A stretch of DNA of 64,000 nucleotides from Eledone cirrhosa. Taxonomy: Eukaryota. Shown in pieces: positions 7,324 through 63,180 of the stretch. The first letter of the stretch is position 1. Every line of letters starts with the position of its first letter. The notes beneath the pieces are model-generated. The model was not told the origin of the DNA and made no database searches. It saw only the letters and a list, made by a program, of their open reading frames with translations. The DNA is taken from the NCBI GenBank assembly GCA_964016885.1, contig OZ024741.1, forward strand, positions 235,352,001 through 235,416,000, read 5' to 3'. The position numbers and the translations under genes were made by a program.

Positions 7324-8277
7324 AAGTGGTAACACAACAGTTAGTTCACCATACCGAGAACAATTGTTTCACCTTAGCGGATCTTCAGCTCGTACTGGTC
7401 ATGGTTATACTGACCAGTACCATCTTTAACAGACACAGAGTAAAACTAGGGTACTCCTGCGTTAAGAATATGAAGGCCCACATCACCAAAAGTCCTAAGA
7501 GCGGCACCCCACCAGGATGCTCTTGCCGAAAGCCTAAAGCTTGTCCCCTTCAACAGCAATGCAACACACACGCTGTAGTTTATGAAGCTGTGGTCACTTC
7601 CAACCGACCAAATCAACCACAGGAGGTCAAATCCTATGTGGGTATGGCGGAGGGCCAATTTAAGGAATGCTTCCTGAACCATCAGTCGACCTTTAGGTAC
7701 TCGGACAAACGATCATCCTTGAAACTCGTGAGCCACGTATGGTCCCTCAAGGATTCAGGTATAGACTACTCCATTCAATGGAAAGCCATCACTAAGTCCA
7801 AGCCATACGCAAGGGGCAATCCGTCTTGTAGACTGTCTATTGAAGAAAGCATAAATATTCTAAGGAGATTACGCAATAGCGATTTCCTAAATTCAAGTAA
7901 TGAAATCTTCTCACGTTGTCCACATGTCTGGAAACACCTCTTGCATAACTACAAAGCTCCGGATTGAATAACAACATTCTAATTTTCTAATCAACTCGAA
8001 CACCTTTTCCGGACTTTCACAGTTATCTACCTTACAACTTTCGCCCATGGCTTTGTACCGCTTGGGTGAAGTGACCGTTTCTGTGCATGCGCGTTCATAT
8101 GGTTGTTCTTCCTGTTCAGTATAACCATGACCAGTACAAGCTGAAGATCTACTAAGGTGAAACAATTGTTCTCAGTATGGTGAACTAACTGTTGTGTTAC
8201 CACTTCTACCTAACTCGTCCCATGAACTGAGTGTTCTACCACTACAGATATTACCTTCCAGTGTTCTACCTCTCTCT
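7324..8277 (+). mobile_element. Penelope-like element (Neptune-type GIY-YIG 3' part) with inverted 5' pseudo-LTR
   Basis: ORF has CSC..CPL..C, VVYEAVV, YVGMAEGQFKE, HVWSLK..YSIQW, CRL..EE, LNSSNE..CPH; 7324-7413 is an inverted copy of 8116-8205. Confidence 0.88.
8132..8180 (+). ncRNA. Minimal type I hammerhead ribozyme in the PLE pseudo-LTR (mirror copy on minus at ~7349-7397)
   Basis: CTGAAGA 8141-8147, short stem II, GAAAC-AATT-GTT; stem I CGAG/CTCG is intact in the minus copy. Confidence 0.6.
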
Positions 8278-12036: not shown

Positions 12037-12108
12037 GACATATTGGTGTAATGGTTAGTACAGTGGTCATGATAGCCAAAGATGTGGGTTCATGTCCAAT
12101 GTATGTCA
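12037..12108 (+). pseudogene. tRNA-like cloverleaf (tRNA pseudogene or SINE head)
   Basis: 72 nt; acceptor GACATAT/GTATGTC, A-box TGGTGTAATGG, B-box GGTTCATGTCC, T-run at ~12121; mismatches in anticodon and T stems and no U33. Confidence 0.6.
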
Positions 12109-19419: not shown

Positions 19420-19859
19420 ATGGTTTCTTATATAGGCACAAGGCCAGCAATTTTTGGGGGGAGGGGAAAGTCGATTAAATCGACACCAGTGCGTGACTGG
19501 TACTTTATTTTATTGACCCCGTAAGGATGAAAAGCAAAGTGAACCTCAGCGGTATTTGGACTCAGACCATAAAGGGCCGTAACTTTTTGCTGCACAGCAT
19601 GGTGTCCGACCCTCTACCGATACTGCCAATCCACCGCCCTTTAATATAATAATAATAATAATAATAATTGTTTCTACTTTTGGCACAAGGCCAGCAATTA
19701 CCCAGTACATTACTGGTACTTTATTTTATCGACCCCGTAAGGATGAAAGGCAAAGTCAACCTCGGCAGGGTTTGACTTCAGAATGGCAAGGGCCGTAACT
19801 CTATGCGTCAAAGCATGGCGTCCGACCCCCTATCGATACTGCCAATCCACCGCCCTTTA

Positions 19860-19893
<34 letters not shown>

Positions 19894-20600
19894 TGTTTCT
19901 ACTTTTGGCACAAGGCCATCAATTACCCAATAATAATAATAATGATAATGATAATGGCTTCTAATTTAGAAACAAGGCCAGCAATTTAGGAGTAGTGTAG
20001 GGTGGAACATTTCATTATAGACCCTTATACTTCACTGGTATTTTATTTTATCAACCTCCAGTAGGAAGGATGAAAGGCAAAGTTGATCTTGGCAAGATTT
20101 GAATTGAGAACATAAACAGTTGCAACTAATACTGCAACGTATTTCATTCGGTGCTCTAATAATTCTACAAATCCACCACCTTAAAAGAGAAATGATTTAA
20201 AATTTTGACAAAAGGTCACAAAATTCATCAAAAAGGAAATAGTGTTGATTAAATTAACCCTAATACATCACTGGCATTTATTTTTTTCGAAACACCCCCC
20301 CCCCCCCCCTCTTCCCCACATCACCAGAATCTCACCTAGTGTGACTTGAACCATGGACATGAAAATGTATTGGCAAAGCAGTCCAAAGATGTTTTTATTC
20401 CATCCACAGTAGTGGTGGTGGTGGTGGTGGTGGTGGTGGGGTGATTGGAAAGGTTGAGTCAATTATATCTTCCTCCAGCCACCTGGACAATATTAGTGAA
20501 GTAAAGGGAAAATAGCTTTAGTTAGTTGCAAATGAAACTCCAGGTTGTGTGTGACTTGAACTCACAGCCACCATTCCACTGCATCAGCTACAATAATGGA

Positions 20601-20641
<41 letters not shown>

Positions 20642-21212
20642 GTTTTCAATTTAGGCACATGGCCAGCAATTTGTGGGGAAGGGGGATGGGGAGGGGGGGA
20701 GGGGGCTGATTAAATCGACTCCAGTATATCAAACTTGGAAGGATGAAAGGCAAAGTTGGACCCGGCAGGATTTGCACTCAGAATGTAAAGAGCCGGTATA
20801 AATACGGTAATAATAGTCATTCCTAGTAAGCACAAGACCTTAAATTTGGGAGAGGGCAGGAGTAGCCAATTAAAATGATCCTAGTACTTTACTGGTACTT
20901 TATTTTATAAACCCCAAAAAGGATGAAAAGAAAAATTGGTTTCAGAAGGTAAAGAGCTGCAACAAGTACAGTGATGCATTTCGTCCAATGCTTAAAATGA
21001 CTGCCAATCAACATCCCTAATAACTGTTTCTACTTTTGGCACAAGGCCAGCAATTACCCAGTGCATTACTGGTACTTTATTTTATCGACCCCGTAAGGAT
21101 GAAAGGCAAAGTTAACCTCGGCGGGATTTGAACTCAGACCATAAAGAGCTGTAACTCTTTGCTGCAAAGCATGGCGTTCGGCTCTCTACCGATACTGCCA
21201 ATCCACCGCCCT
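19420..21212 (-). mobile_element. Dense co-oriented cluster of SINE family B copies
   Basis: Copies at ~19420-19640, 19668-19856, 19892-19929, 19955-20181, 20640-20810, 20820-21018 and 21025-21212, mostly separated by (AAT)n. Confidence 0.88.
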
Positions 21213-21426: not shown

Positions 21427-21573
21427 GTATATGTTTATGTGTGTGTATGTGTGTTTTAATAAGCCTGAAGTAAATTTATTCAATTTCTTACAACATGGTC
21501 ACAAAGTTCCAGCAAGGCATGTGTTTGCTTAAGCTTCATCAGAGAAAACTCAGGCTCTAAGAACATGATATAA

Positions 21574-21639
<66 letters not shown>

Positions 21640-21870
21640 TAGTCTGCTATAAATATTGAGTTCTTCCTCTTTTCTGTGCTACTTAGGTTTCATGGCCAAG
21701 CTCATATTGCAAATGCAGTAAAATTTTGCCCTTCACAATTCAAAATCATTTTGAATTTTGATGTCTAAACAAAGGTAGGATTTGTAATCTGAGTCAGTTC
21801 TTCATATATATATATATAGAGTGCTCTTTTCCTTCCTGTTGGCTCTCTGGCTATATATATATATATATAT

Positions 21871-22286
21871 ACAAGGATGATTGGTTACTCTTTCATTGTT
21901 TATTGGTTAGTGACGCGCGTTTCGCCACTGATCAGCTCAAGGTTCGATCTGTATCAATCAAAACAAACTTCACTGACCACCATAGGAACATCAGACTTTC
22001 TCATACGGCATGTATATTCATTTTTCCATTACCATTATAAGGGGTCTGACGAGCCGCGGATTACAGAGTCGGGATAGATCGATACAGATCGAACCTTGAG
22101 CTCTTCAGTGGCGAAACGCGCGTCACCAACCAATAAACGTAATGAAGGAGTAACCAATCGTCCTTGTTATTTTATTTCACTATAATACACTCTGTCTAGC
22201 TCTACACCTTGACACTGAAGCGATCCTAAACATCGAGTGCTCACCCGGGTGAACCTACAGTAACTGCAAGTTACACTCTCTGGATA
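21871..22286 (+). mobile_element. Non-coding PLE-type insert with inverted arm, hammerhead and structured tail
   Basis: 21871-21959 is inverted against 22077-22167; tail 22200-22286 matches the reverse complement of 54061-54147; flanked by (TA)n. Confidence 0.8.
22041..22127 (+). ncRNA. Type I hammerhead ribozyme
   Basis: Stem I GGT/ACC, CTGACGA 22046-22052, stem II GCCGC/GTGGC, GAAA 22113-22116, palindromic CGCGCG stem III, GTC triplet 22122-22124. Confidence 0.8.
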
Positions 22287-22306
22287 TATATATATGTGTA
22301 TATGTC

Positions 22307-22459
<153 letters not shown>

Positions 22460-22732
22460 GTAAAAGTACTGGTGGTGGCCTGCCTCAACCAAAATTATAT
22501 TCTATTGTAAGTCATCAATTTTAATAAATTCATATGTCATGAGGTGAAAGGGATCTGACATTTTGGTGCGTGTCCATTCAACTGAAAGGGAGAGTTTGAA
22601 AATTTCTCTCCTATAATAAAAGACAGTCCCCAAACATCATATTTGGCTTTTCCACAAGGCATATAACTTTATCTAATTCACAAACTTTGTGTGAATGTGT
22701 GTGTATGTGTGCGTATATGTAAACACACATTC

Positions 22733-22773
<41 letters not shown>

Positions 22774-23140
22774 TACATATGCATACAAAGATATACTAAT
22801 ACAAGGATATGAATTATGTTAATTCATGCATCCTCTTTTACATGTGTATGTATTTATGTGTGTTCATGTATGTAATAACATGGGTATAAGAATGATCATT
22901 ATTTATCATTATTATTTGTATTATTATTATTATGACCATAACTTATTGTACCATGTTGAGTCATGTGTGTTCTTATGCAATGTCTGGGGCGGGGACAATT
23001 ATTATCATTAGTGTTATTATTATTATCAATATTATGAGCCTAGTTCATCACATTGAGTTTTGTGTGTTGTTATATAGTCTTGGGAGTGATTATGATTATT
23101 GTTATTATTATTATTATCATTATTATGGCCATAGCCTAGT

Positions 23141-24011
23141 TCACCATGTTGAGTCTCGTGTGTTGTTACGTACAGTCTGGGGCACATTGAGGCATGTCGA
23201 GGCATACATCTGTATTGTAGGAAAGATCTGTGTAGTTGCTGGTGAGATTTCAATGGTTGAAGGGAACACAGGCATGGCTGTGGCTGTTGAGCCCAGTTTT
23301 GCAATGGCTGTGTGGTAGATCTGTTGGGTCTTCGAGTTAGTCAAGCTCTGTACATTGCTGACTGGTACGACAACGGTTCCACTCTCACCAGTGATTGGAG
23401 TCATTTGTTGCGTTACAGTTAAGATGTTTGCTTCATTGGTGTTGATGTCCTTAGTGTCAATGGGTTGTTGTTGTTGCTGTTGCTGTTGTTGATGTTGGGG
23501 AATGCAGTTTAGTTTACGTTCACCATCCTTGTTGCGTTGATGCTTCAACAAATGGTCCTTACGTGCAAACATGAAGCCACACACCTCACATTTGTACGGC
23601 CGTTCCCCCGTATGGATACGACTGTGGACAGTCAAGTAGGATTTCCGAGAGAAGCATTTTCCACAGTCCTTGCAGTTAAACTGCTTGATGTCTGTATGCG
23701 TGCTCTTGTGGCGCTCAAGGTTGTCGCGTCGGGCAAAAGCTCTGTTGCAAAATTCACATTTGAATGACACGGATGCACCAGTCCTACCCGAGGCCTTGCT
23801 GTTGGTTGTCACAGGAGTGGTGTTGCTGACAGTTGCAGTCCCACTGCTACTGCACATTACTGCATGTTGTACTGATGCAAAAGGCTTTGGCTGTTCAATG
23901 GTTGTGCAGTTTTGAAACTGTATTGGTGTCTCAATTTGTTCTCCAATCACCATCTTTGTTATTCCACTACAATCAGTGATAATATGTTGTTGTTGTTGCT
24001 GTTGCTGCTGC

Positions 24012-24043
<32 letters not shown>

Positions 24044-24068
24044 CTGCTGTGCTTGCTGTGGTTGTTGC

Positions 24069-24099
<31 letters not shown>

Positions 24100-24838
24100 G
24101 CGGTGATTCTTGTATCTGTTGCACTTGCTGCACCTGCTGTTGGTCTTGCTGTTGTGCAGCTTCAATGCAACATTGTGAGCCACCACAAGAAGTATTGCAC
24201 ATTGTGCAGTCAGTGTAAGTGGTGTTCTTCTGGTCACTGTCAATGTTTTCCCCAATGCTGTTAATTATAATGTTGTTACATTTTAGTTCCTGGCCATCCA
24301 TCTGTACCTGAATATTGAGTTGTTGGGGTTGAAGTTCCCCTGGGTTAGCGTGTGTGTACACCGTCTGGCTGCCATCACTGGCTGTTGTCACATAGACAGT
24401 TGTTACAGGTTCTTCTCCATGCTGTTTCCTCCTGTGTCGGACAAGGTGGTCACCACGGTAAAAAGCACAGCCACAAACATTACACTGGTATGGTCGCTTG
24501 CCTGTGTGTATCCGCTCGTGAACAGTCAAATAGGAACGTCGGGAGAAAGCCTTACCACACACCTCGCACTTGAACAGCTTCAGACCTTGATGGCCGCGGA
24601 TGTGTATGACGAGGTGGTCATTTCTGGAGAAGGCATGGCCACAGATATTGCAGCCAAATGGTCTCTCCCCGGTGTGGATCCTTTTGTGTAGTTTTAGATA
24701 GGACTTCTGTGAATATGCTCGGCCACACAAATCACACGGAAACATTTCTCGGTGTAGGTGCCGATTCTTATGCCGTTCCATGTTGTCGCGGCGAGAGAAA
24801 ACTTTGCCACAAACATCACACATTGGAGGTTTTTTCAT
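23141..24838 (-). CDS. C2H2 zinc-finger transcription factor, 565 aa, 5+3 fingers separated by polyQ, single coding exon
   Basis: Intact ORF with eight C-x2-C-x12-H fingers and TGERP/TGKRP linkers; in-frame TAA upstream of the ATG. Confidence 0.96.
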
Positions 24839-24934
24839 CTTGCTTGTTGGCTGGTTGTTTGATGCAGACAGAATGAGATAAATCGATGCTGGTCTGGCTT
24901 AGCTGAACAACAATGACAACACAGATAATCTGTT

Positions 24935-26721: not shown

Positions 26722-29700
26722 CAACTGATTTGGAGCAACTACATAAGCATGTAATTAGATAAAATACAGTTTAGTTTTGTCCAGGAAGGAACACCACTGG
26801 TGCCCAACTGATTTGGAGCAACTACATAAGCATGTAATTAGATAAGATGCAGATAGTTTTGTCCAGGAAGGAACACCACTGGTGCCCAACTGATTTGGAG
26901 AAACTACATAAGTATGTAATTAGATAAGATACAGTTTAGTTTTGTCCAGGAAGGAACACCACTGGTGCCCAACTGATTTGGAGCAACTACATAAGCATGT
27001 AATTAGATAAGATACAGTTTAGTTTTGTCCAGGAAGGAACACCACTGGTGCCCAACTGATTCGAAGCAACTACGTAAGCATGTAATTAAATAAGATACAG
27101 TTTAGTTTTGTCCAGGAAGGAACACCACTGGTGCCCAACTGATTCGGAGCAACTACATAAGCATGTAATTAGATAAGATACAGTTTAGTTTTGTCCAGGA
27201 AGGAACACCAGTGGTGGCCAACTGATTCGGAGCAACTACATAAGCATGTAATTAGATAAAATACAGTTTAGTTTTGTCCAGGAAGGAACATCACTGGTGC
27301 CCAACTGATTTGGAGCAACTACATAAGCATGTAATTAGATAAGATAGTTTAGTTTTGTCCAGGAAGGAACATCACTGGTGGCCAACTGATTCGGAGCAAC
27401 TACATAAGCATGTAATTAGATAAAATACAGTTTAGTTTTGTCCAGGAAGGAACATCACTGGTGCCCAACTGATTCGGAGCAACTACATAAGCATGTAATT
27501 AGATAAGATAGTTTAGTTTTGTCCAGGAAGGAACATCACTGGTGGCCAACTGATTCGGAGCAACTACATAAGCATGTAATTAGATAAAATACAGTTTAGT
27601 TTTGTCCAGGAAGGAACATCACTGGTGCCCAACTGATTTGGAGCAACTACATAAGCATGTAATTAGATAAGATAGTTTAGTTTTGTCCAGGAAGGAACAT
27701 CACTGGTGGCCAACTGATTCGGAGCAACTACATAAGCATGTAATTAGATAAAATACAGTTTAGTTTTGTCCAGGAAGGAACATCACTGGTGCCCAACTGA
27801 TTTGGAGCAACTACATAAGCATGTAATTAGATAAGATAGTTTAGTTTTGTCCAGGAAGGAACATCACTGGTGGCCAACTGATTCGGAGCAACTACATAAG
27901 CATGTAATTAGATAAAATACAGTTTAGTTTTGTCCAGGAAGGAACATCACTGGTGCCCAACTGATTCGGAGCAACTACATAAGCATGTAATTAGATAAGA
28001 TAGTTTAGTTTTGTCCAGGAAGGAACACCAGTGGTGGCCAACTGATTCGGAGCAACTACATAAGCATGTAATTAGATAAAATACAGTTTAGTTTTGTCCA
28101 GGAAGGAACACCACTGGTGCCCAACTGATTCGGAGCAACTACATAAGCATGTAATTAGATAAAATACAGTTTAGTTTTGTCCAGGAAGGAACATCACTGG
28201 TGGCCAACTGATTCGGAGCAACTACATAAGCATGTAATTAGATAAAATACAGTTTAGTTTTGTCCAGGAAGGAACACCACTGGTGCCCAACTGATTCGGA
28301 GCAACTACATAAGCATGTAATTAGATAAGATACAGTTTAGTTTTGTCCAGGAAGGAACACCACTGGTGCCCAACTGATTCGGAGCAACTACATAAGCATG
28401 TAATTAGATAAAATACAGTTTAGTTTTGTCCAGGAAGGAACACCACTGGTGCCCAACTGATTCGGAGCAACTACATAAGCATGTAATTAGATAAAATACA
28501 GTTTAGTTTTGTCCAGGAAGGAACACCACTGGTACCCAACTGATTCGGAGCAACTACATAAGCATGTAATTAGATAAAATACAGTTTAGTTTTGTCCAGG
28601 AAGGAACACCACTGGTGCCCAACTGATTCGTAGCAACTACATAAGCATGTAATTAGATAAAATACAGTTTAGTTTTGTCCAGGAAGGAACACCACTGGTA
28701 CCCAACTGATTCGGAGCAACTACATAAGCATGTAATTAGATAAAATACAGTTTAGTTTTGTCCAGGAAGGAACACCACTGGTACCCAACTGATTCGGAGC
28801 AACTACATAAGCATGTAATTAGATAAAATACAGTTTAGTTTTGTCCAGGAAGGAACACCACTGGTGCCCAACTGATTCGGAGCAACTACATAAGCATGTA
28901 ATTAGATAAAATACAGTTTAGTTTTGTCCAGGAAGGAACACCACTGGTGCCCAACTGATTCGGAGCAACTACATAAGCATGTAATTAGATAAAATACAGT
29001 TTAGTTTTGTCGAGGAAGGAACACCACTGGGGCCCAACTGATTTGGAGCAACTACATAAGCATGTAATTAGATAAGATAGTTTAGTTTTGTCCAGGAAGG
29101 AACATCACTGGCGGCCAACTGATTTGGAGCAACTACATAAGCATGTAATTAGATAAGATAGTTTAGTTTTGTCCAGGAAGGAACATCACTGGTGGCCAAC
29201 TGATTTGGAGCAACTACATAAGCATGTAATTAGATAAAATAAAGTTTAGTTTTGTCCAGGAAGGAACACCACTGGTGGGCAACTGATTCGGAGCAACTAC
29301 ATGAGCATGTAATTAGATAAAATACAGTTTAGTTTTGTCCAGGAAGGAACACCACTGGTGCCCAACTGATTTGGAGCAACTACATAAGAATGTAATTAGA
29401 TAAGATACAGTTTAGTTTTGTCCAGGAAGGAACACCACTGGTGCCCAACTGATTTGGAGCAACTACATAAGCATGTAATTAGATAAAATAAAGTTTAGTT
29501 TGGTCCAGGAAGGAACACCACTGGTGCCCAACTGATTCGGAGCAACTACATAAGCATGTAATTAGATAAGATAGTTTAGTTTTGTCCAGGAAGGAACATC
29601 ACTGGTGCCCAACTGATTTGGAGCAACTACATAAGCATGTAATTAGATAAAATACAGTTTAGTTTTGTCCAGGAAGGAACACCACTGGTGCCCAACTGAT

Positions 29701-32175
29701 TCAAAGCAACTACATAAGCATGTAATTAGATAAAATAAAGTTTAGTTTGGTCCAGGAAGGAACACCACTGGTGCCCAACTGATTCGGAGCAACTACATAA
29801 GCATGTAATTAGATAAGATAGTTTAGTTTTGTCCAGGAAGGAACATCACTGGTGCCCAACTGATTTGGAGCAACTACATAAGCATGTAATTAGATAAAAT
29901 ACAGTTTAGTTTTGTCCAGGAAGGAACACCACTGGTGCCCAACTGATTCGGAGCAACTACATAAGCATGTAATTAGATAAAATACAGTTTGGTTCTGTCC
30001 AGGAAGGAACACCACTGGTGCCCAACTGATTCGGAGCAACTACATAAGCATGTAATTAGATAAGATACAGTTTAGTTTTGTCCAGGAAGGAACACCACTG
30101 GTGCCCAACTGATTCGGAGCAACTACATAAGCATGTAATTAGATAAGATAGTTTAGTTTTGTCCAGGAAGGAACACCACTGGTGGGCAACTGATTCGGAG
30201 CAACTACATAACCATGTAATTAGATAAAATACAGTTTAGTTTTGTCCAGGAAGGAACACCACTGGTGGCCAACTGATTCGGAGCAACTACATAAGCATGT
30301 AATTAGATAAAATACAGTTTAGTTTTGTCCAGGAAGGAACACCACTGGTGCCCAACTGATTCGGAGCAACTACATAAGCATGTAATTAGATAAAATACAG
30401 TTTAGTTTTGTCCAGGAAGGAACATCACTGGTGCCCAACTGATTCGGAGCAACTACATAAGCATGTAATTAGATAAGATACAGTTTAGTTTTGTCCAGGA
30501 AGGAACACCACTGGTGCCCAACTGATTCGGAGCAACTACATAAGCATGTAATTAGATAAGATACAGTTTAGTTTTGTCCAGGAAGGAACACCACTGGTGC
30601 CCAACTGATTCGGAGCAACTACATAAGCATGTAATTAGATAAGATAGTTTAGTTTTGTCCAGGAAGGAACACCACTGGTGGGCAACTGATTCGGAGCAAC
30701 TACATAAGCATGTAATTAGATAAAATACAGTTTAGTTTTGTCCAGGAAGGAACACCACTGGTGGCCAACTGATTCGGAGCAACTACATAAGCATGTAATT
30801 AGATAAAATACAGTTTAGTTTTGTCCAGGAAGGAACACCACTGGTGCCCAACTGATTCGGAGCAACTACATAAGCATGTAATTAGATAAAATACAGTTTA
30901 GTTTTGTCCAGGAAGGAACATCACTGGTGCCCAACTGATTCGGAGCAACTACATAAGCATGTAATTAGATAAGATACAGTTTAGTTTTGTCCAGGAAGGA
31001 ACACCACTGGTGCCCAACTGATTCGGAGCAACTACATAAGCATGTAATTAGATAAGATACAGTTTAGTTTTGTCCAGGAAGGAACACCACTGGTGCCCAA
31101 CTGATTCGGAGCAACTACATAAGCATGTAATTAGATAAGATAGTTTAGTTTTGTCCAGGAAGGAACACCACTGGTGGGCAACTGATTCGGAGCCACTACA
31201 TAAGCATGTAATTAGATAAAATACAGTTTAGTTTTGTCCAGGAAGGAACACCACTGGTGCCCAACTGATTCGGAGCAACTACATAAGCATGTAATTAGAT
31301 AAAATACAGTTTAGTTTTGTCCAGGAAGGAACATCACTGGTGCCCAACTGATTCGGAGCAACTACATAAGCATGTAATTAGATAAGATACAGTTTAGTTT
31401 TGTCCAGGAAGGAACACCACTGGTGCCCAACTGATTCGGAGCAACTACATAAGCATGTAATTAGATAAAATACAGTTTAGTTTTGTCCAGGAAGGAACAC
31501 CACTGGTGCCCAACTGATTCGGAGCAACTACATAAGCATGTAATTAGATAAGATACAGTTTAGTTTTGTCCAGGAAGGAACACCACTGGTGCCCAACTGA
31601 TTTGGAGCAACTACATAAGCATGTAATTAGATAAGATACAGTTTAGTTTTGTCCAGGAAGTAACACCACTGGTGCCTAACTGATTTGGAGCAACTACATA
31701 AGCATGTAATTATATAAGATACAGTTTAGTTTTGTCCAGGAAGGGACACCACTGGTGCCCAACTGATTTGGAGCAACTACATAAGCATGTAATTAGATAA
31801 GATACAGTTTAGTTTTGTCCAGGAAGGAACACCACTGGTGCCCAACTGATTTGGAGCAACTACATAAGCATGTAATTAGATAAGATACAGTTTAGTTTTA
31901 TCCAGGAAGGAACACCACTGGTGCCCAGCTGATTCGGACCAACTACATAAGCATGTAATTAGATAAGATACAGTTTAGTTTTGTCCAGGAAGGAACACCA
32001 CTGGTGCCCAACTGATTCGGAGCAACTACATAAGGATGTAATTAGATAAGATACAGTTTAGTTTTGTCCAGGAAGGAACACCACTGGTGCCCAGCTGATT
32101 CGGACCAACTACATAAGCATGTAATTAGATAAAATACAGTTTAGTTTTGTCCAGGAAGGAACACCACTGGTGCCC
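26722..32175. repeat. 83-bp (81-bp variant) tandem satellite, about 66 copies
   Basis: Unit CAACTGATTYGGAGCAACTACATAAGCATGTAATTAGATAARATACAGTTTAGTTTTGTCCAGGAAGGAACAYCACTGGTGCC; first period 26722 to 26805. Confidence 0.98.
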
Positions 32176-45446: not shown

Positions 45447-48400
45447 TCTATATTAATAAAGCTGACGGCCGTATGTATGTAACAAAATTTTCGCCAAGTG
45501 GCACCAAATTTGCACCATAGATGTAACTTTTTCCAAGTAAGAAAGTGAGGGTATTTTTGTCTACTAAATTTTGTTAAAAGATTTATTTTATTTTTTATTT
45601 TTTATTTTTTATTTTTTACTTAAATATTCACTTCCTTAAAATTTTCAAATGTCAACACTTCCGGTTAGCAATCGTTTAAATAAACATTCATATATTTTGC
45701 AGTTTATATATATCGTCTTTTTTTTTTTATGTATCATGGATTAAATTTCTGAGTATATTGTCAATCTCTATCTATATTAATAAAGCTGACTTCATTACTG
45801 GTACTTTATTATATATCTATATATCTAAAACAGAGAATGTCTGTCTGTCTAACTCCCTAAAACTCGAGAACCACCCAACTGATTCTTTTCAAACTTTACA
45901 CATGTAATACTGATGGTCCTGTGACGGTTTTGAGCAAATTTTCAATGCCCTAGGGACTGCATTAGGCGATTTAGCGCTCTCACTCAATAATTTTTAGTCT
46001 TTCTTTTTGATAGATACATAGATATAACGTTGCGTCCTTATAATATCTGTCTGTATGTCTGGCTGTCTGTATTACGACATTATGACGCTATATGTGTGCG
46101 TGTGTATATATATATATAGTGTGTAACGTTTTTCGAAATATTTACTTCTGCGTTCCCAGATTGATTGATAATATCTGTCTGTATGTCTGCCTGTCTGCAT
46201 TGACTTCGCTTCTAACCAACTTTTAATTAATGATATGTAGATATAATTATATATTCGTGTACATATTTTCAACAGTAATACTGTACTATATATTTTCAAC
46301 AGTAATACTGTACTGTACTATATATTTCCAACAGTAGTACTGTACTACATATTTTCAACAGTAATACTGTACTACATATTTTCAACAGTAATACTGTACT
46401 GTACTATATATTTCCAACAGTAATACTGTACTACATATTTTCAACAGTAATACTGTACTGTACTATATATTTCCAACAGTAGTACTGTACTACATATTTT
46501 CAACAGTAATACTGTACTGTACTATATATTTCCAACAGTAGTACTGTACTACATATTTTCAACAGTAATACTGTACTACATATTTTCAACAGTAATACTG
46601 TACTATATATTTCCAACAGTAATACTGTACTACATATTTTCAACAGTAATACTGTACTGTACTATATATTTCCAACAGTAGTACTGTACTACATATTTTC
46701 AACAGTAATACTGTACTGTACTATATATTTCCAACAGTAGTACTGTACTACATATTTTCAACAGTAATACTGTACTACATAATTTCAACAGTAATACTGT
46801 ACTGTACTATATATTTCCAACAGTAATACTGTACTACATATTTTCAACAGTAATACTGTACTGTACTATATATTTCCAACAGTAGTACTGTACTACATAT
46901 TTTCAACAGTAATACTGTACTGTACTATATATTTCCAACAGTAGTACTGTACTACATATTTTCAACAGTAATACTGTACTACATATTTTCAACAGTAATA
47001 CTGTACTGTACTATATATTTCCAACAGTAATACTGTACTACATATTTTCAACAGTAATACTGTACTGTACTATATATTTCCAACAGTAGTACTGTACTAC
47101 ATATTTTCAACAGTAATACTGTACTGTACTATATATTTCCAACAGTAGTACTGTACTACATATTTTCAACAGTAATACTGTACTGTACTATATATTTCCA
47201 ACAGTAGTACTGTACTACATATTTTCAACAGTAATACTGTACTGTACTATATATTTCCAACAGTAATACTGTACTACATATTTTCAACAGTAATACTGTA
47301 CTGTACTATATATTTCCAACAGTAGTACTGTACTACATATTTTCAACAGTAATACTGTACTGTACTATATATTTCCAACAGTAGTACTGTACTACATATT
47401 TTCAACAGTAATACTGTACTGTACTATATATTTCCAACAGTAGTACTGTACTACATATTTTCAACAGTAATACTGTACTGTACTATATATTTCCAACAGT
47501 AGTACTGTACTACATATTTTCAACAGTAATACTGTACTACATATTTTCAACAGTAATACTGTACTGTACTATATATTTCCAACAGTAATACTGTACTACA
47601 TATTTTCAACAGTAATACTGTACTGTACTATATATTTCCAACAGTAGTACTGTACTACATATTTTCAACAGTAATACTGTACTGTACTATATATTTCCAA
47701 CAGTAGTACTGTACTACATATTTTCAACAGTAATACTGTACTGTACTATATATTTCCAACAGTAGTACTGTACTACATATTTTCAACAGTAATACTGTAC
47801 TACATATTTTCAACAGTAATACTGTACTGTACTATATATTTCCAACAGTAATACTGTACTACATATTTTCAACAGTAATACTGTACTGTACTATATATTT
47901 CCAACAGTAGTACTGTACTACATATTTTCAACAGTAATACTGTACTGTACTATATATTTCCAACAGTAGTACTGTACTACATATTTTCAACAGTAATACT
48001 GTACTACATATTTTCAACAGTAATACTGTACTGTACTATATATTTCCAACAGTAATACTGTACTACATATTTTCAACAGTAATACTGTACTGTACTATAT
48101 ATTTCCAACAGTAGTACTGTACTACATATTTTCAACAGTAATACTGTACTACATATTTTCAACAGTAATACTGTACTGTACTATATATTTTCAACAGTAG
48201 TACTGTACTACATATTTTCAACAGTAATACTGTACTATATATTTTCAACAGTAATACTGTACTGTACTATATATTTTCAACAGTAATACTGTACTACATA
48301 TTTTCAACAGTAATACTGTATGTACTATATATTTTCAACAGTAATACTGTACTACATATTTTCAACAGTAATACTGTACTGTACTATATATTTTCAACAG

Positions 48401-49365
48401 TAATACTGTACTACATATTTTCAACAGTAATACTGTACTGTACTATATATTTTCAACAGTAATACTGTACTACATATTTTCAACAGTAATACTGTACTGT
48501 ACTATATATTTTCAACAGTAATACTGTACTACATATTTTCAACAGTAATACTGTACTGTACTATATATTTTCAACAGTAGTACTGTACTACATATTTTCA
48601 ACAGTAATACTGTACTATATATTTTCAACAGTAATACTGTACTATATATTTTCAACAGTAATACTGTACTATATATTTTCAACAGTAATACTGTACTGTA
48701 CTATATATTTTCAACAGTAATACTGTACTGTACTATATATTTTCAACAGTAATACTGTACTACATATTTTCAACAGTAATACTGTACTATATATTTTCAA
48801 CAGTAATACTGTACTGTACTATATATTTTCAACAGTAATACTGTACTACATATTTTCAACAGTAATACTGTACTATATATTTTCAACAGTAATACTGTAC
48901 TGTACTATATATTTTCAACAGTAATACTGTACTACATATTTTCAACAGTAATACTATACTACATATTTTCAACAGTAATACTATACTATATATTTTCAAC
49001 AGTAATACTGTACTACATATTTTCAACAGTAATACTATACTACATATTTTCAACAGTAATACTGTACTATATATTTTCAACAGTAATACTGTACTATATA
49101 TTTCCAACAGTAATACTATACTATATATTTTCAACAGTAATACTGTACTATATATTTCCAACAGTAATACTGTACTATATATTTTCAACAGTAATACTGT
49201 ACTATACTATATATTTTCAACAGTAATACTGTACTATATATTTTCAACAGTAATACTATACTATATATTTTCAACAGTAATACTGTACTATATATTTTCA
49301 ACAGTAATACTATACTACACAGAGGGTTTATCGTCTGTTTATCCAAGCGATGCTAGGTACGTCAG

Positions 49366-54045: not shown

Positions 54046-54060
54046 CTCTCTCTCTATATA

Positions 54061-54610
54061 TATCCAGGGAGTGTAACTTGGAGTTACTGTAGGTTCACCT
54101 GTGTGAGCACTCAATGTTTAGGTTCACTTCAGTGTCAAGGTGTAGAGAACAGCCTCTTTAAGCTATGTAAATAGAATGACACCGTCATTCTTGCTCTTGT
54201 GTTGCCGTTCTGTTTATATGCCAACGTCGGTAGATTACTGATGAATTTTTCCCATCTTGGAGTTCTCACCAGTTTTTACTTATCCTTTCTCCTTATGCTA
54301 AATATTAATAGCATAAGATGTACTGAGGGACATTATAAGAATAAAAACACAACATATATAGGTGAAACAGCTCGTAGCATAAGAGAAAGGATAAGTGAAC
54401 ACTGGCGAGAAGTCCAAAATGGGAAAAACTCATCAGTACTCCACCAACATACCAAAATAGAACATAGGGGCACATTAGAGAACAGAGATAACAATTATAT
54501 CCACACACAGAAAAGATGCAATGCTCAGACAAATTACAGAGGCGACAAACATAAATGAATTCCAACCAAAATTAAACAGAAAACATGAGTGGAATAGCAA
54601 CATCATAACT
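54061..54610. mobile_element. PLE remnants: structured tail (minus), inverted and direct GIY-YIG fragments
   Basis: YIGETARSIRERISEH on plus (~54355-54402) and a LNRKHEW-like end; 54225-54300 is a diverged inverted copy of 54375-54450. Confidence 0.75.
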
Positions 54611-62768: not shown

Positions 62769-63180
62769 GCATGGCTTAGTGGTTAGAGCATTGGGCTTGC
62801 AATCGAAAGGTTGTGAGTTCAATTCTCAGACCGGGTGATGTGCTGTTTCCTTAAACAAGACACTTTATTTCACATTGCTCCAGTTTACTCAGCTGAAGAA
62901 ATGAGATGATGGGGACTGGGGTCCCTATCATTCCACTGCGAAGTGCTCGCGGAGGTGCCACAGCAAAAAAGCACACTGTAAACTGGACGTGTAGGAAAAA
63001 AAATAAAAGCACCCAGTACTCACTGTAAATGAGGTTGGTGTTAGGAAGGGCTGTAGAAATCAAGCCAGAATCAGTTCCTGTATGAGCAAGAGAAGGTCAG
63101 CCAACCGGACACTGCCCACAATAGGACAACCCGTCTAACCCATGCTAGCGTGGAAGAACGGACGTAAAACGGTATGATGA
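62769..63180 (+). mobile_element. SINE family A head and core with an RTE family 2 tail
   Basis: Ends GGACAACCCGTCTAACCCATGCTAGCGTGGAAGAACGGACGTAAAACGG as at 41161-41209. Confidence 0.85.

What the first reader, a model, noticed from the sequence alone, without database searches (positions are those of the whole stretch)
21871..22286. Compact non-coding hammerhead retroelement (retrozyme-like) 0.9 kb past the ZNF stop
Seen: a ~415-bp insert in (TA)n with no ORF, a canonical core (CUGACGA, GCCGC/GUGGC, GAAAC-GCGC-GUC) with a ~50-nt loop 2, and an ~89-bp inverted arm covering only the 3' half of the ribozyme. The ribozyme is antisense to the gene, but the hairpin forms on either strand. Known: PLE-derived retrozymes give self-cleaved and circular RNAs in other metazoans. 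Inference: could put an editable dsRNA in the ZNF 3'UTR.
Basis: partly seen in the sequence, partly recalled or inferred. Interest (0 to 1): 0.72.

Follow-up and report, generated by a model that had tools for sequence, protein, structure and literature searches.

The report
Two-armed Penelope fragment forming editable hairpin
This is not a stand-alone ribozyme element but the truncated end of a common Penelope-type jumping gene, inserted as two back-to-back copies that are predicted to fold into a long RNA hairpin, which likely lies in the tail of a zinc-finger gene's mRNA and is likely edited there.

Summary
The hammerhead motif, inverted arm and (TA)n flanks are real. The element is not a retrozyme. 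It is the terminal repeat (pLTR) of an RT plus GIY-YIG Penelope-like family with the Hydra-clade motifs; near-full-length copies exist, 616 exact hits of one 28-mer, and 0 of 88 sampled insertions are tandem arrays. The head-to-head layout is routine: 39 of 88 insertions are two-armed, and 35 of 38 classifiable ones pair a long end with a short end 102 nt upstream, never long with long (p=3e-8). Best explanation: both nicked target strands primed reverse transcription on one RNA at two fixed sites. At this locus the ribozyme is likely silent: antisense to the ZNF gene, and clamped by the inverted arm on the other strand. One contig from a run of unrecorded kind spans the unique flank and the arm and shows four T>C changes, all in the duplex, two of them erasing an AAUAAA; this suggests A-to-I editing but lacks a matched DNA control. 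New family of a known kind, with a useful mechanistic statistic.

The parts
21852..21870 (.). (TA)n target remnant, left
   Evidence: 113 of 135 family arm ends have a TA run within 20 nt, against 200 of 1760 flank controls
21871..21959 (-). Inverted short-end arm: second truncated copy of the pLTR (unit positions 123-213), holding only the 3' half of the hammerhead
21955..22286 (+). Sense long-end arm: 332 bp of the pLTR of a Hydra-type Penelope-like element; junction with the inverted arm at about 21955-21959 (short shared letters)
22041..22131 (+). Type I hammerhead motif: stem I 22041-22045 / 22125-22131, core 22046-22052, 60-nt helix II 22053-22112, GAAAC 22113-22117, palindromic helix III, predicted cut after 22124
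22077..22167 (+). Partner of the inverted arm; predicted ~89-bp duplex on either strand
22185..22286 (+). 102-nt 'tail' between the family's two fixed 3' ends (22184 = short end, 22286 = long end)
   Evidence: 3' ends pile up at unit positions 230 and 332
22284..22295 (.). (TA)n target remnant, right, followed by (TG)71
21892..21908 (-). Candidate A-to-I sites 21892, 21903, 21904, 21908 (T>C on +). All are A-U paired in the predicted minus-strand duplex; 21903 and 21904 are the first two A of an AAUAAA at 21904-21899
   Evidence: one contig, no matched DNA
21475..21480 (-). Candidate distal poly(A) signal of the ZNF transcript; the contig carrying the changes extrapolates to end near 21451
   Evidence: inferred, and a microsatellite at the same place is an alternative reason for the contig's end
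23141..24898 (-). C2H2 zinc-finger ORF (stop to stop, 585 aa; first ATG about 24838)

Best explanation
The feature is a 5'-truncated, head-to-head two-armed insertion of the terminal repeat of a Penelope-like retrotransposon with Hydra-clade motifs, likely made when both nicked strands of a (TA)n target primed reverse transcription on one element RNA at two fixed sites 102 nt apart. Shown: family membership, the parent ORF, the two fixed ends, the long-plus-short pairing and the likeness of paired arms. Inferred: the enzyme nicks both strands; the distal cDNA usually runs through the proximal start by displacing the other cDNA; the two cDNA ends are joined in the middle. Where arms overlap the insert is a ready-made hairpin. 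Here the hairpin is predicted to lie in the 3' UTR of the minus-strand ZNF mRNA and is likely an ADAR substrate (about 0.65). The hammerhead is a passenger and likely does not cut at this locus (about 0.85): it is antisense in the ZNF transcript, and in a plus-strand transcript its 3' half would be trapped by the arm transcribed before it.
For: Parent: L061 and L062 have pLTR-RT-EN-UTR-pLTR, L062 with an inverted truncated copy abutting its 5' end; 22 of 30 loci holding the ORF start have a pLTR piece contiguous with it. Layout: 39 of 88 insertions two-armed; 35 long+short, 3 short+short, 1 long+other, 0 long+long, while single-armed ones are 23 long, 24 short, 2 other (binomial p=3.3e-8 for 35 of 38). 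In 5 of 39 the long arm stops before reaching the short start, as twin priming on one RNA predicts. Paired arms differ by 7.8% against 11.1% between loci (31 pairs, p=4e-7) and agree at subfamily site 121 in 13 of 14 pairs, expected share 0.32. A purified Penelope protein cuts and extends both strands, starts at two internal sites that define the tail, is predicted to be a dimer and does not need its hammerhead (PMC11167929). The hammerhead fold is 74 kcal/mol above the hairpin in the whole plus-strand element. Copies with U4C (18 of 75 arms) or A6U (6 of 75) cores also spread. Editing: all 4 listed differences in the one locus-specific contig are T>C, all in the arm (p=0.005 for position alone), and none is a family variant (G in 1 of 121, 0 of 123, 0 of 122, 0 of 122 arms).
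Against: The window's own arms differ by 9.8%, no less than between loci (9.2%), and its short arm ends at unit position 213, not the modal 230. Three two-armed insertions are short+short. Arm likeness could also come from one master gene or from later conversion between arms. The sample was picked by an exact 28-mer, which favours two-armed insertions by up to twofold, and covers 94 of 616 hits, from two contigs. The editing signal rests on one contig of depth 7 from a run whose kind is not on record; 3 of its 7 differences were not listed; the other three runs are from another sample, so alleles are not excluded. No contig joins the arm to the ZNF coding exon. Clade assignment is by motif and by eye, with no tree.
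Confidence: 0.78

Rival explanations
1. A stand-alone non-autonomous retrozyme that yields self-cleaved monomers and circles.
For: Size (332 bp), type I hammerhead and no coding frame in this copy; 75 of 88 sampled copies start inside the unit and carry no upstream UTR; retrozymes are thought to derive from pLTRs (bioRxiv 10.64898/2026.07.22.740005).
Against: 0 of 88 tandem arrays, 5' ends scattered from -661 to 151 rather than fixed or permuted; the unit is contiguous with the ORF on both sides in long copies; only one complete hammerhead at this locus.
Confidence: 0.05
2. Same parent element, but the inverted arm arose by fold-back or template switching of a single cDNA, or by two independent priming events on separate RNAs, and not by twin priming on one RNA.
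For: Several junctions carry short extra fold-back pieces (gaps of up to 73 nt); most arms overlap widely, unlike L1 twin-priming products (recalled); 3 short+short cases.
Against: Independent priming predicts about half mixed pairs and some long+long; 35 of 38 are mixed and none is long+long. Fold-back of one cDNA cannot give the 5 cases in which the two arms share no sequence, nor explain why the second arm stops at a site that single-armed copies also use.
Confidence: 0.15
3. The insertion is inert for the ZNF gene: the mRNA ends upstream (AUUAAA at 22525-22520 or AAUAAA at 22176-22171) and the T>C differences are alleles or come from a DNA run.
For: Those signals exist; the run's kind is not on record and there is no DNA of the same individual.
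Against: Four same-type changes within 17 nt, confined to the predicted duplex, on the ZNF strand and absent from family copies; the run's assembly is 16 times smaller than the others (87.8 against about 1,400 million letters) yet holds 0.84 of the words of 22460-24900, as a transcriptome would.
Confidence: 0.3

Closest known systems
Hydra clade of Penelope-like elements, including Hydra-1_Obim (Craig et al. 2021, PMC8557442; passages, section 11, supplement parts 1, 2, 7, 52 read)
   Same: C-terminal GIY-YIG; RWK, DKT, CxCx5C, CxxC and CxH motifs; no CCHH; (TA)n targeting; hammerhead in the pLTR; 5' truncation; inverted truncated copy at the 5' end; tail on one end only.
   Different: A separate family: the hammerhead sequence differs from the one listed for Hydra-1_Obim; unit about 3.77 kb against mostly under 3 kb; helix II spans 60 nt whereas the 26 Hydra rows of File S2 have loops of 3-10 nt; tail 102 nt against the 30-40 nt stated for PLEs. 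The paper gives no count of how ends pair.
Poseidon element of Anolis (PAc), in vitro (Frangieh et al. 2024, PMC11167929; parts 1-2 of 4 read)
   Same: Two internal start sites define the tail; both target strands are cut and extended; AT-rich target; hammerhead dispensable.
   Different: PAc starts lie inside the ORF; here both ends lie upstream of the ATG (long end 44-45 nt before it) and 102 nt apart, each ending in TA-like letters that could pair with the target. No significant stem-loop was found at either end here.
Animal non-LTR retrozymes (Cervera and de la Pena 2020, PMC7229834, passages; Li et al. bioRxiv 10.64898/2026.07.22.740005, part 1 and passages)
   Same: About 300 nt, type I hammerhead, high copy number, related to pLTRs.
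   Different: Defined by tandem repeats with at least two hammerheads and no own ORF; neither holds here.
Metazoan PLE hammerheads (Cervera and de la Pena 2014, PMC4209133; parts 1-2 of 4 read)
   Same: Short palindromic helix III suited to dimer cleavage (dimer of the palindrome -14.7 kcal/mol), enlarged helix II, short helix I, mostly single motifs from truncated PLEs, some pairs on opposite strands 100-700 bp apart.
   Different: Helix II is far longer than the 6-8 bp described.
Hyper-edited self-folding repeats (Porath et al. 2017, PMC5625713, passages: frog Harbinger, lizard Penelope, octopus) and 3' UTR repeat editing in cephalopods (Albertin et al. 2022, PMC9068888, passages)
   Same: A single insertion supplies its own dsRNA; repeats in 3' UTRs are commonly edited.
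   Different: Here the palindrome is made by the insertion mechanism and is not part of the element's own sequence.
L1 twin priming (recalled, no call)
   Same: Same geometry: true 3' end on one side, internally primed inverted piece on the other.
   Different: The internal site is fixed and the arms usually overlap.

Membership tests
Penelope-like elements (EN+) | Single ORF with RT and GIY-YIG endonuclease | tested here: met
   RT (LYRDD) and IIY...YIG frames in family copies, broken in every copy read; Pfam named neither piece
Penelope-like elements (EN+) | pLTRs from partial tandems, 5' truncation, inverted 5' copy, one-sided tail | tested here: met
Hydra clade | C-terminal EN; RWK and DKT motifs | tested here: met
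   RIRWKAY and ADKTG in L061 and L055
Hydra clade | CxCx5C linker; CCHH absent; CxxC and CxH around the conserved E and N | tested here: met
   CNCKKRVEC; one Cys only between IIY and YIG; CRLC...E...N...CRH in L047 and L055
Hydra clade | Insertion into (TA)n | tested here: met
   113 of 135 arm ends
Hydra clade | Generally shorter than 3 kb; canonical compact hammerhead | tested here: not met
   Unit about 3.77 kb; helix II 60 nt. Described as typical, not as defining, in PMC8557442
Hydra clade | Placement in the RT phylogeny | not tested
   Compared with Hydra-1_Obim by eye only; 42% identity over 190 aa to a second Hydra-like family in this genome
Non-LTR retrozymes | Head-to-tail tandem units with at least two hammerheads | tested here: not met
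   0 of 88 insertions; the 4 with a second same-strand piece are split or diverged fragments
Non-LTR retrozymes | Non-autonomous, no ORF in the family | tested here: not met
Non-LTR retrozymes | Self-cleaved linear and circular RNA | not testable with these tools
   only assembled contigs were available
Type I hammerhead ribozyme | Conserved core and three helices | tested here: met
   93.9% of cells paired in 24 copies
Type I hammerhead ribozyme | Compensatory changes supporting the helices | tested here: inconclusive
   3 pairs with one double change each; copies too close
Type I hammerhead ribozyme | Self-cleavage | not testable with these tools
   monomer fold is 3.9-17.8 kcal/mol above the minimum in 40 of 76 copies that have the core

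The most novel reading that the evidence does not exclude
Penelope twin priming mass-produces single-insertion hairpins (30 of 88 sampled insertions carry a duplex of 72 bp or more), making it a main source of the edited dsRNA of cephalopod transcripts; in this ZNF 3' UTR the inverted arm brought in a poly(A) signal that is hidden in the duplex and erased by A-to-I editing, so ADAR activity sets where the mRNA ends.
Probability: 0.2. Interest if true: 0.72.

Novelty: new member of a known kind. Interest (0 to 1): 0.42.

Why it matters
How Penelope elements make their inverted ends and one-sided tails is called unresolved in Craig et al. 2021. The 35-of-38 long-plus-short rule and the five non-overlapping pairs give a sharp genomic prediction, one RNA primed twice, that the existing in vitro system can test. 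If such inserts are edited, they help explain the abundance of near-perfect dsRNA reported for octopus and offer a natural case of editing acting on a poly(A) signal. The practical lesson for the scan: a lone hammerhead with an inverted arm in (TA)n in this genome can be a truncated Penelope end and not a retrozyme. I found no paper stating the pairing rule or the editing link in searches, but the library lacks most subscription papers.

Tried and rejected
No RNA holder listed: the four runs have no recorded kind. The second laying of run X1 (21456-22314, likeness 85) did not lay the 508-nt contig at all (no depth at 21688-21774), so the T>C cluster was seen in one laying only; X1 gave no cover of 21962-22053 and runs X2-X4 none of 21686-21800. 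Idea that unit position 1 is the transcription start: two long copies begin at positions 2 and 3, but upstream pLTR ends in 30 loci scatter from -77 to 301; rejected. Stem-loops at the two fixed ends: z from +1.1 to -0.8 in 6 folds; not supported. A minus-strand hammerhead using the CUGAAGA made by this copy's private change: no adjoining helix II or stem I (read by eye); rejected. The 34-bp piece at 21818-21851 as another repeat's end: its 25-mer occurs once in the genome; not supported at exact match. Alifold on the gapped alignment returned no structure. Core positions are not more conserved than flanks among copies, as expected for dead copies; uninformative. Look-ups of earlier findings by place and by sequence gave nothing.

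Full report
Observation. A relaxed hammerhead descriptor finds only this site in the window and none in 100 shuffles. The arm at 21871-21959 matches the reverse complement of 22077-22167 in 83 of 91 columns, and the element folds far better than shuffles. The C2H2 zinc-finger ORF on the minus strand stops 855 bp away. Rfam does not call the ribozyme, probably because helix II is so long. The host is not given; an octopus-like cephalopod is my inference from the likeness to Hydra-1_Obim and the genome's make-up.

What it belongs to. A genome search split the element into a 332-bp unit (21955-22286) with 3,896 first-look candidates, 40 scored at about 89-98% identity, and an inverted piece that is part of the same unit. 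One exact 28-mer of the ribozyme's 3' half occurs 616 times, the reversed control 0 times. Most of the best-matching copies continue upstream into a ~700-bp UTR and a GIY-YIG frame, then into RT. L061 and L062 are near-full-length: unit, ORF, UTR, unit; L062 has an inverted truncated copy against its 5' end. The ATG lies 44-45 nt past the unit's end, and 22 of 30 loci with the ORF start have part of the unit directly upstream. The unit is therefore the pLTR. The protein pieces carry every motif that Craig et al. list for the Hydra clade. All frames read were broken. The family differs from Hydra-1_Obim in its hammerhead and length; I compared proteins by eye and built no tree.

The insertion rule. 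I took 94 of the 616 exact hits in genome order and merged those in one insertion, leaving 88 loci (L084 and L086 dropped as duplicates). 3' ends pile up at unit positions 230 and 332, and 113 of 135 run into (TA)n. 39 loci are head-to-head two-armed: 35 long+short, 3 short+short, 1 long+other, none long+long; single-armed loci split 23 long, 24 short, 2 other (p=3.3e-8). In 5 the long arm stops before the short start; in 30 the arms overlap by 72-164 bp. None is a tandem array. Paired arms are more alike than arms of different loci (7.8% against 11.1%, 31 pairs with 60 or more shared columns) and share subfamily letters. Picking by exact match favours two-armed loci, so 44% is an upper estimate. 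The window copy is an ordinary long+short case, though its short arm ends at 213 and its arms are no closer than average.

Mechanism. Frangieh et al. showed that a Penelope protein cuts and extends both target strands and starts at two internal sites that bracket the tail. The pairing rule adds that the two strands do not choose independently. The simplest reading is one RNA primed twice, the distal cDNA usually displacing the proximal one (inferred; similar in geometry to L1 twin priming, which I recall and did not read). Inverted copies and a one-sided tail are known. By my hand arithmetic on File S2 and the length table, published Hydra consensus ends lie either 5-22 nt (10 families) or 60-128 nt (11 families) past the listed motif, with 3 others and 1 excluded, so a long tail may be general in this clade.

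The ribozyme. It has the short palindromic helix III of metazoan PLE hammerheads, which cut poorly and as dimers. The long 'loop' is predicted to be a 60-nt helix; covariation is too sparse to test. Copies with U4C (18 of 75 arms) and A6U (6 of 75) also spread, in line with cleavage being dispensable. At this locus it is antisense to the ZNF gene, and in a plus-strand transcript the active fold costs 74 kcal/mol against the hairpin.

Editing. Run X1 has no recorded kind. Its assembly is 87.8 million letters against about 1,400 million for the other three, and it holds 0.84 of the words of 22460-24900, so I infer RNA. One 508-nt contig, depth 7, covers the unique flank and the left arm (21640-21955) with 7 differences; the 4 listed are T>C at 21892, 21903, 21904 and 21908. 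They read as A>G on the ZNF strand, are A-U paired in the predicted duplex, fall in the arm more often than chance (p=0.005) and are not family variants. Two of them destroy an AAUAAA that the inverted arm places on the ZNF strand. The contig extrapolates to end near 21451, about 24 nt past another AAUAAA, but a microsatellite lies there too. This is one contig seen in one laying (see Tried and rejected), with no DNA of the same animal, so it is a lead. Editing of 3' UTR repeats in cephalopods and of self-folding repeats is already known.

Earlier notes of this scan describe the same twin-arm footprint and the one-RNA idea for other families in this genome. They are unchecked notes and not independent support; the counts above are my own. 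One of them reports hairpins at the two ends, which I did not find here.

Verdict. A new Hydra-type Penelope family, seen here as a typical truncated two-armed insert; not a retrozyme. Interest is moderate, for the pairing statistic and the editing lead. Supplements of the bioRxiv preprint were closed and long supplement sequences of Craig et al. were cut, which may bear on whether this family is already catalogued.

Noticed in passing
window 54057-54147 (-): A 91-bp piece of the same family, tail only (unit 241-331, 90% identical to L062), ending in a TA run.
   Followed up: partly
window 7422-7850 (+): Endonuclease end of a second Hydra-like family (CSC-x5-C linker, YVG; 42% identical over 91 aa to the ORF in L067).
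   Followed up: partly
L067 4289-5518 (-): 410-aa open frame of a second Hydra-like family lying next to a copy of this family; 42% identical over 190 aa in RT.
   Followed up: partly
L070, L076, L087, L090, L014 (two arms): A subfamily whose hammerhead core is altered at U4 and A6, with shared upstream changes; it amplified although the core looks dead.
   Followed up: partly
window 21818-21851: 34-bp piece between two TA runs that resembles the start and end of the family's tail; its 25-mer is unique in the genome.
   Followed up: partly
window 26722-32175 and 46260-49319: Long tandem arrays: 66 copies of 83 bp (96% matches) and about 53 copies of 59 bp.
   Followed up: no
window 12037-12108 and 62772-62829: Weak tRNA matches, probably heads of tRNA-derived SINEs.
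   Followed up: no
window 19496-21160: Several diverged copies of a ~200-bp repeat on both sides of 20600, downstream of the candidate poly(A) site.
   Followed up: no
window 23976-24100: Long polyglutamine tract between the two zinc-finger clusters of the ZNF ORF.
   Followed up: no
L005, L011, L019, L024 flanks: Large perfect inverted repeats from other elements sit directly beside family copies, suggesting that (TA)n sites collect several two-armed inserts.
   Followed up: no
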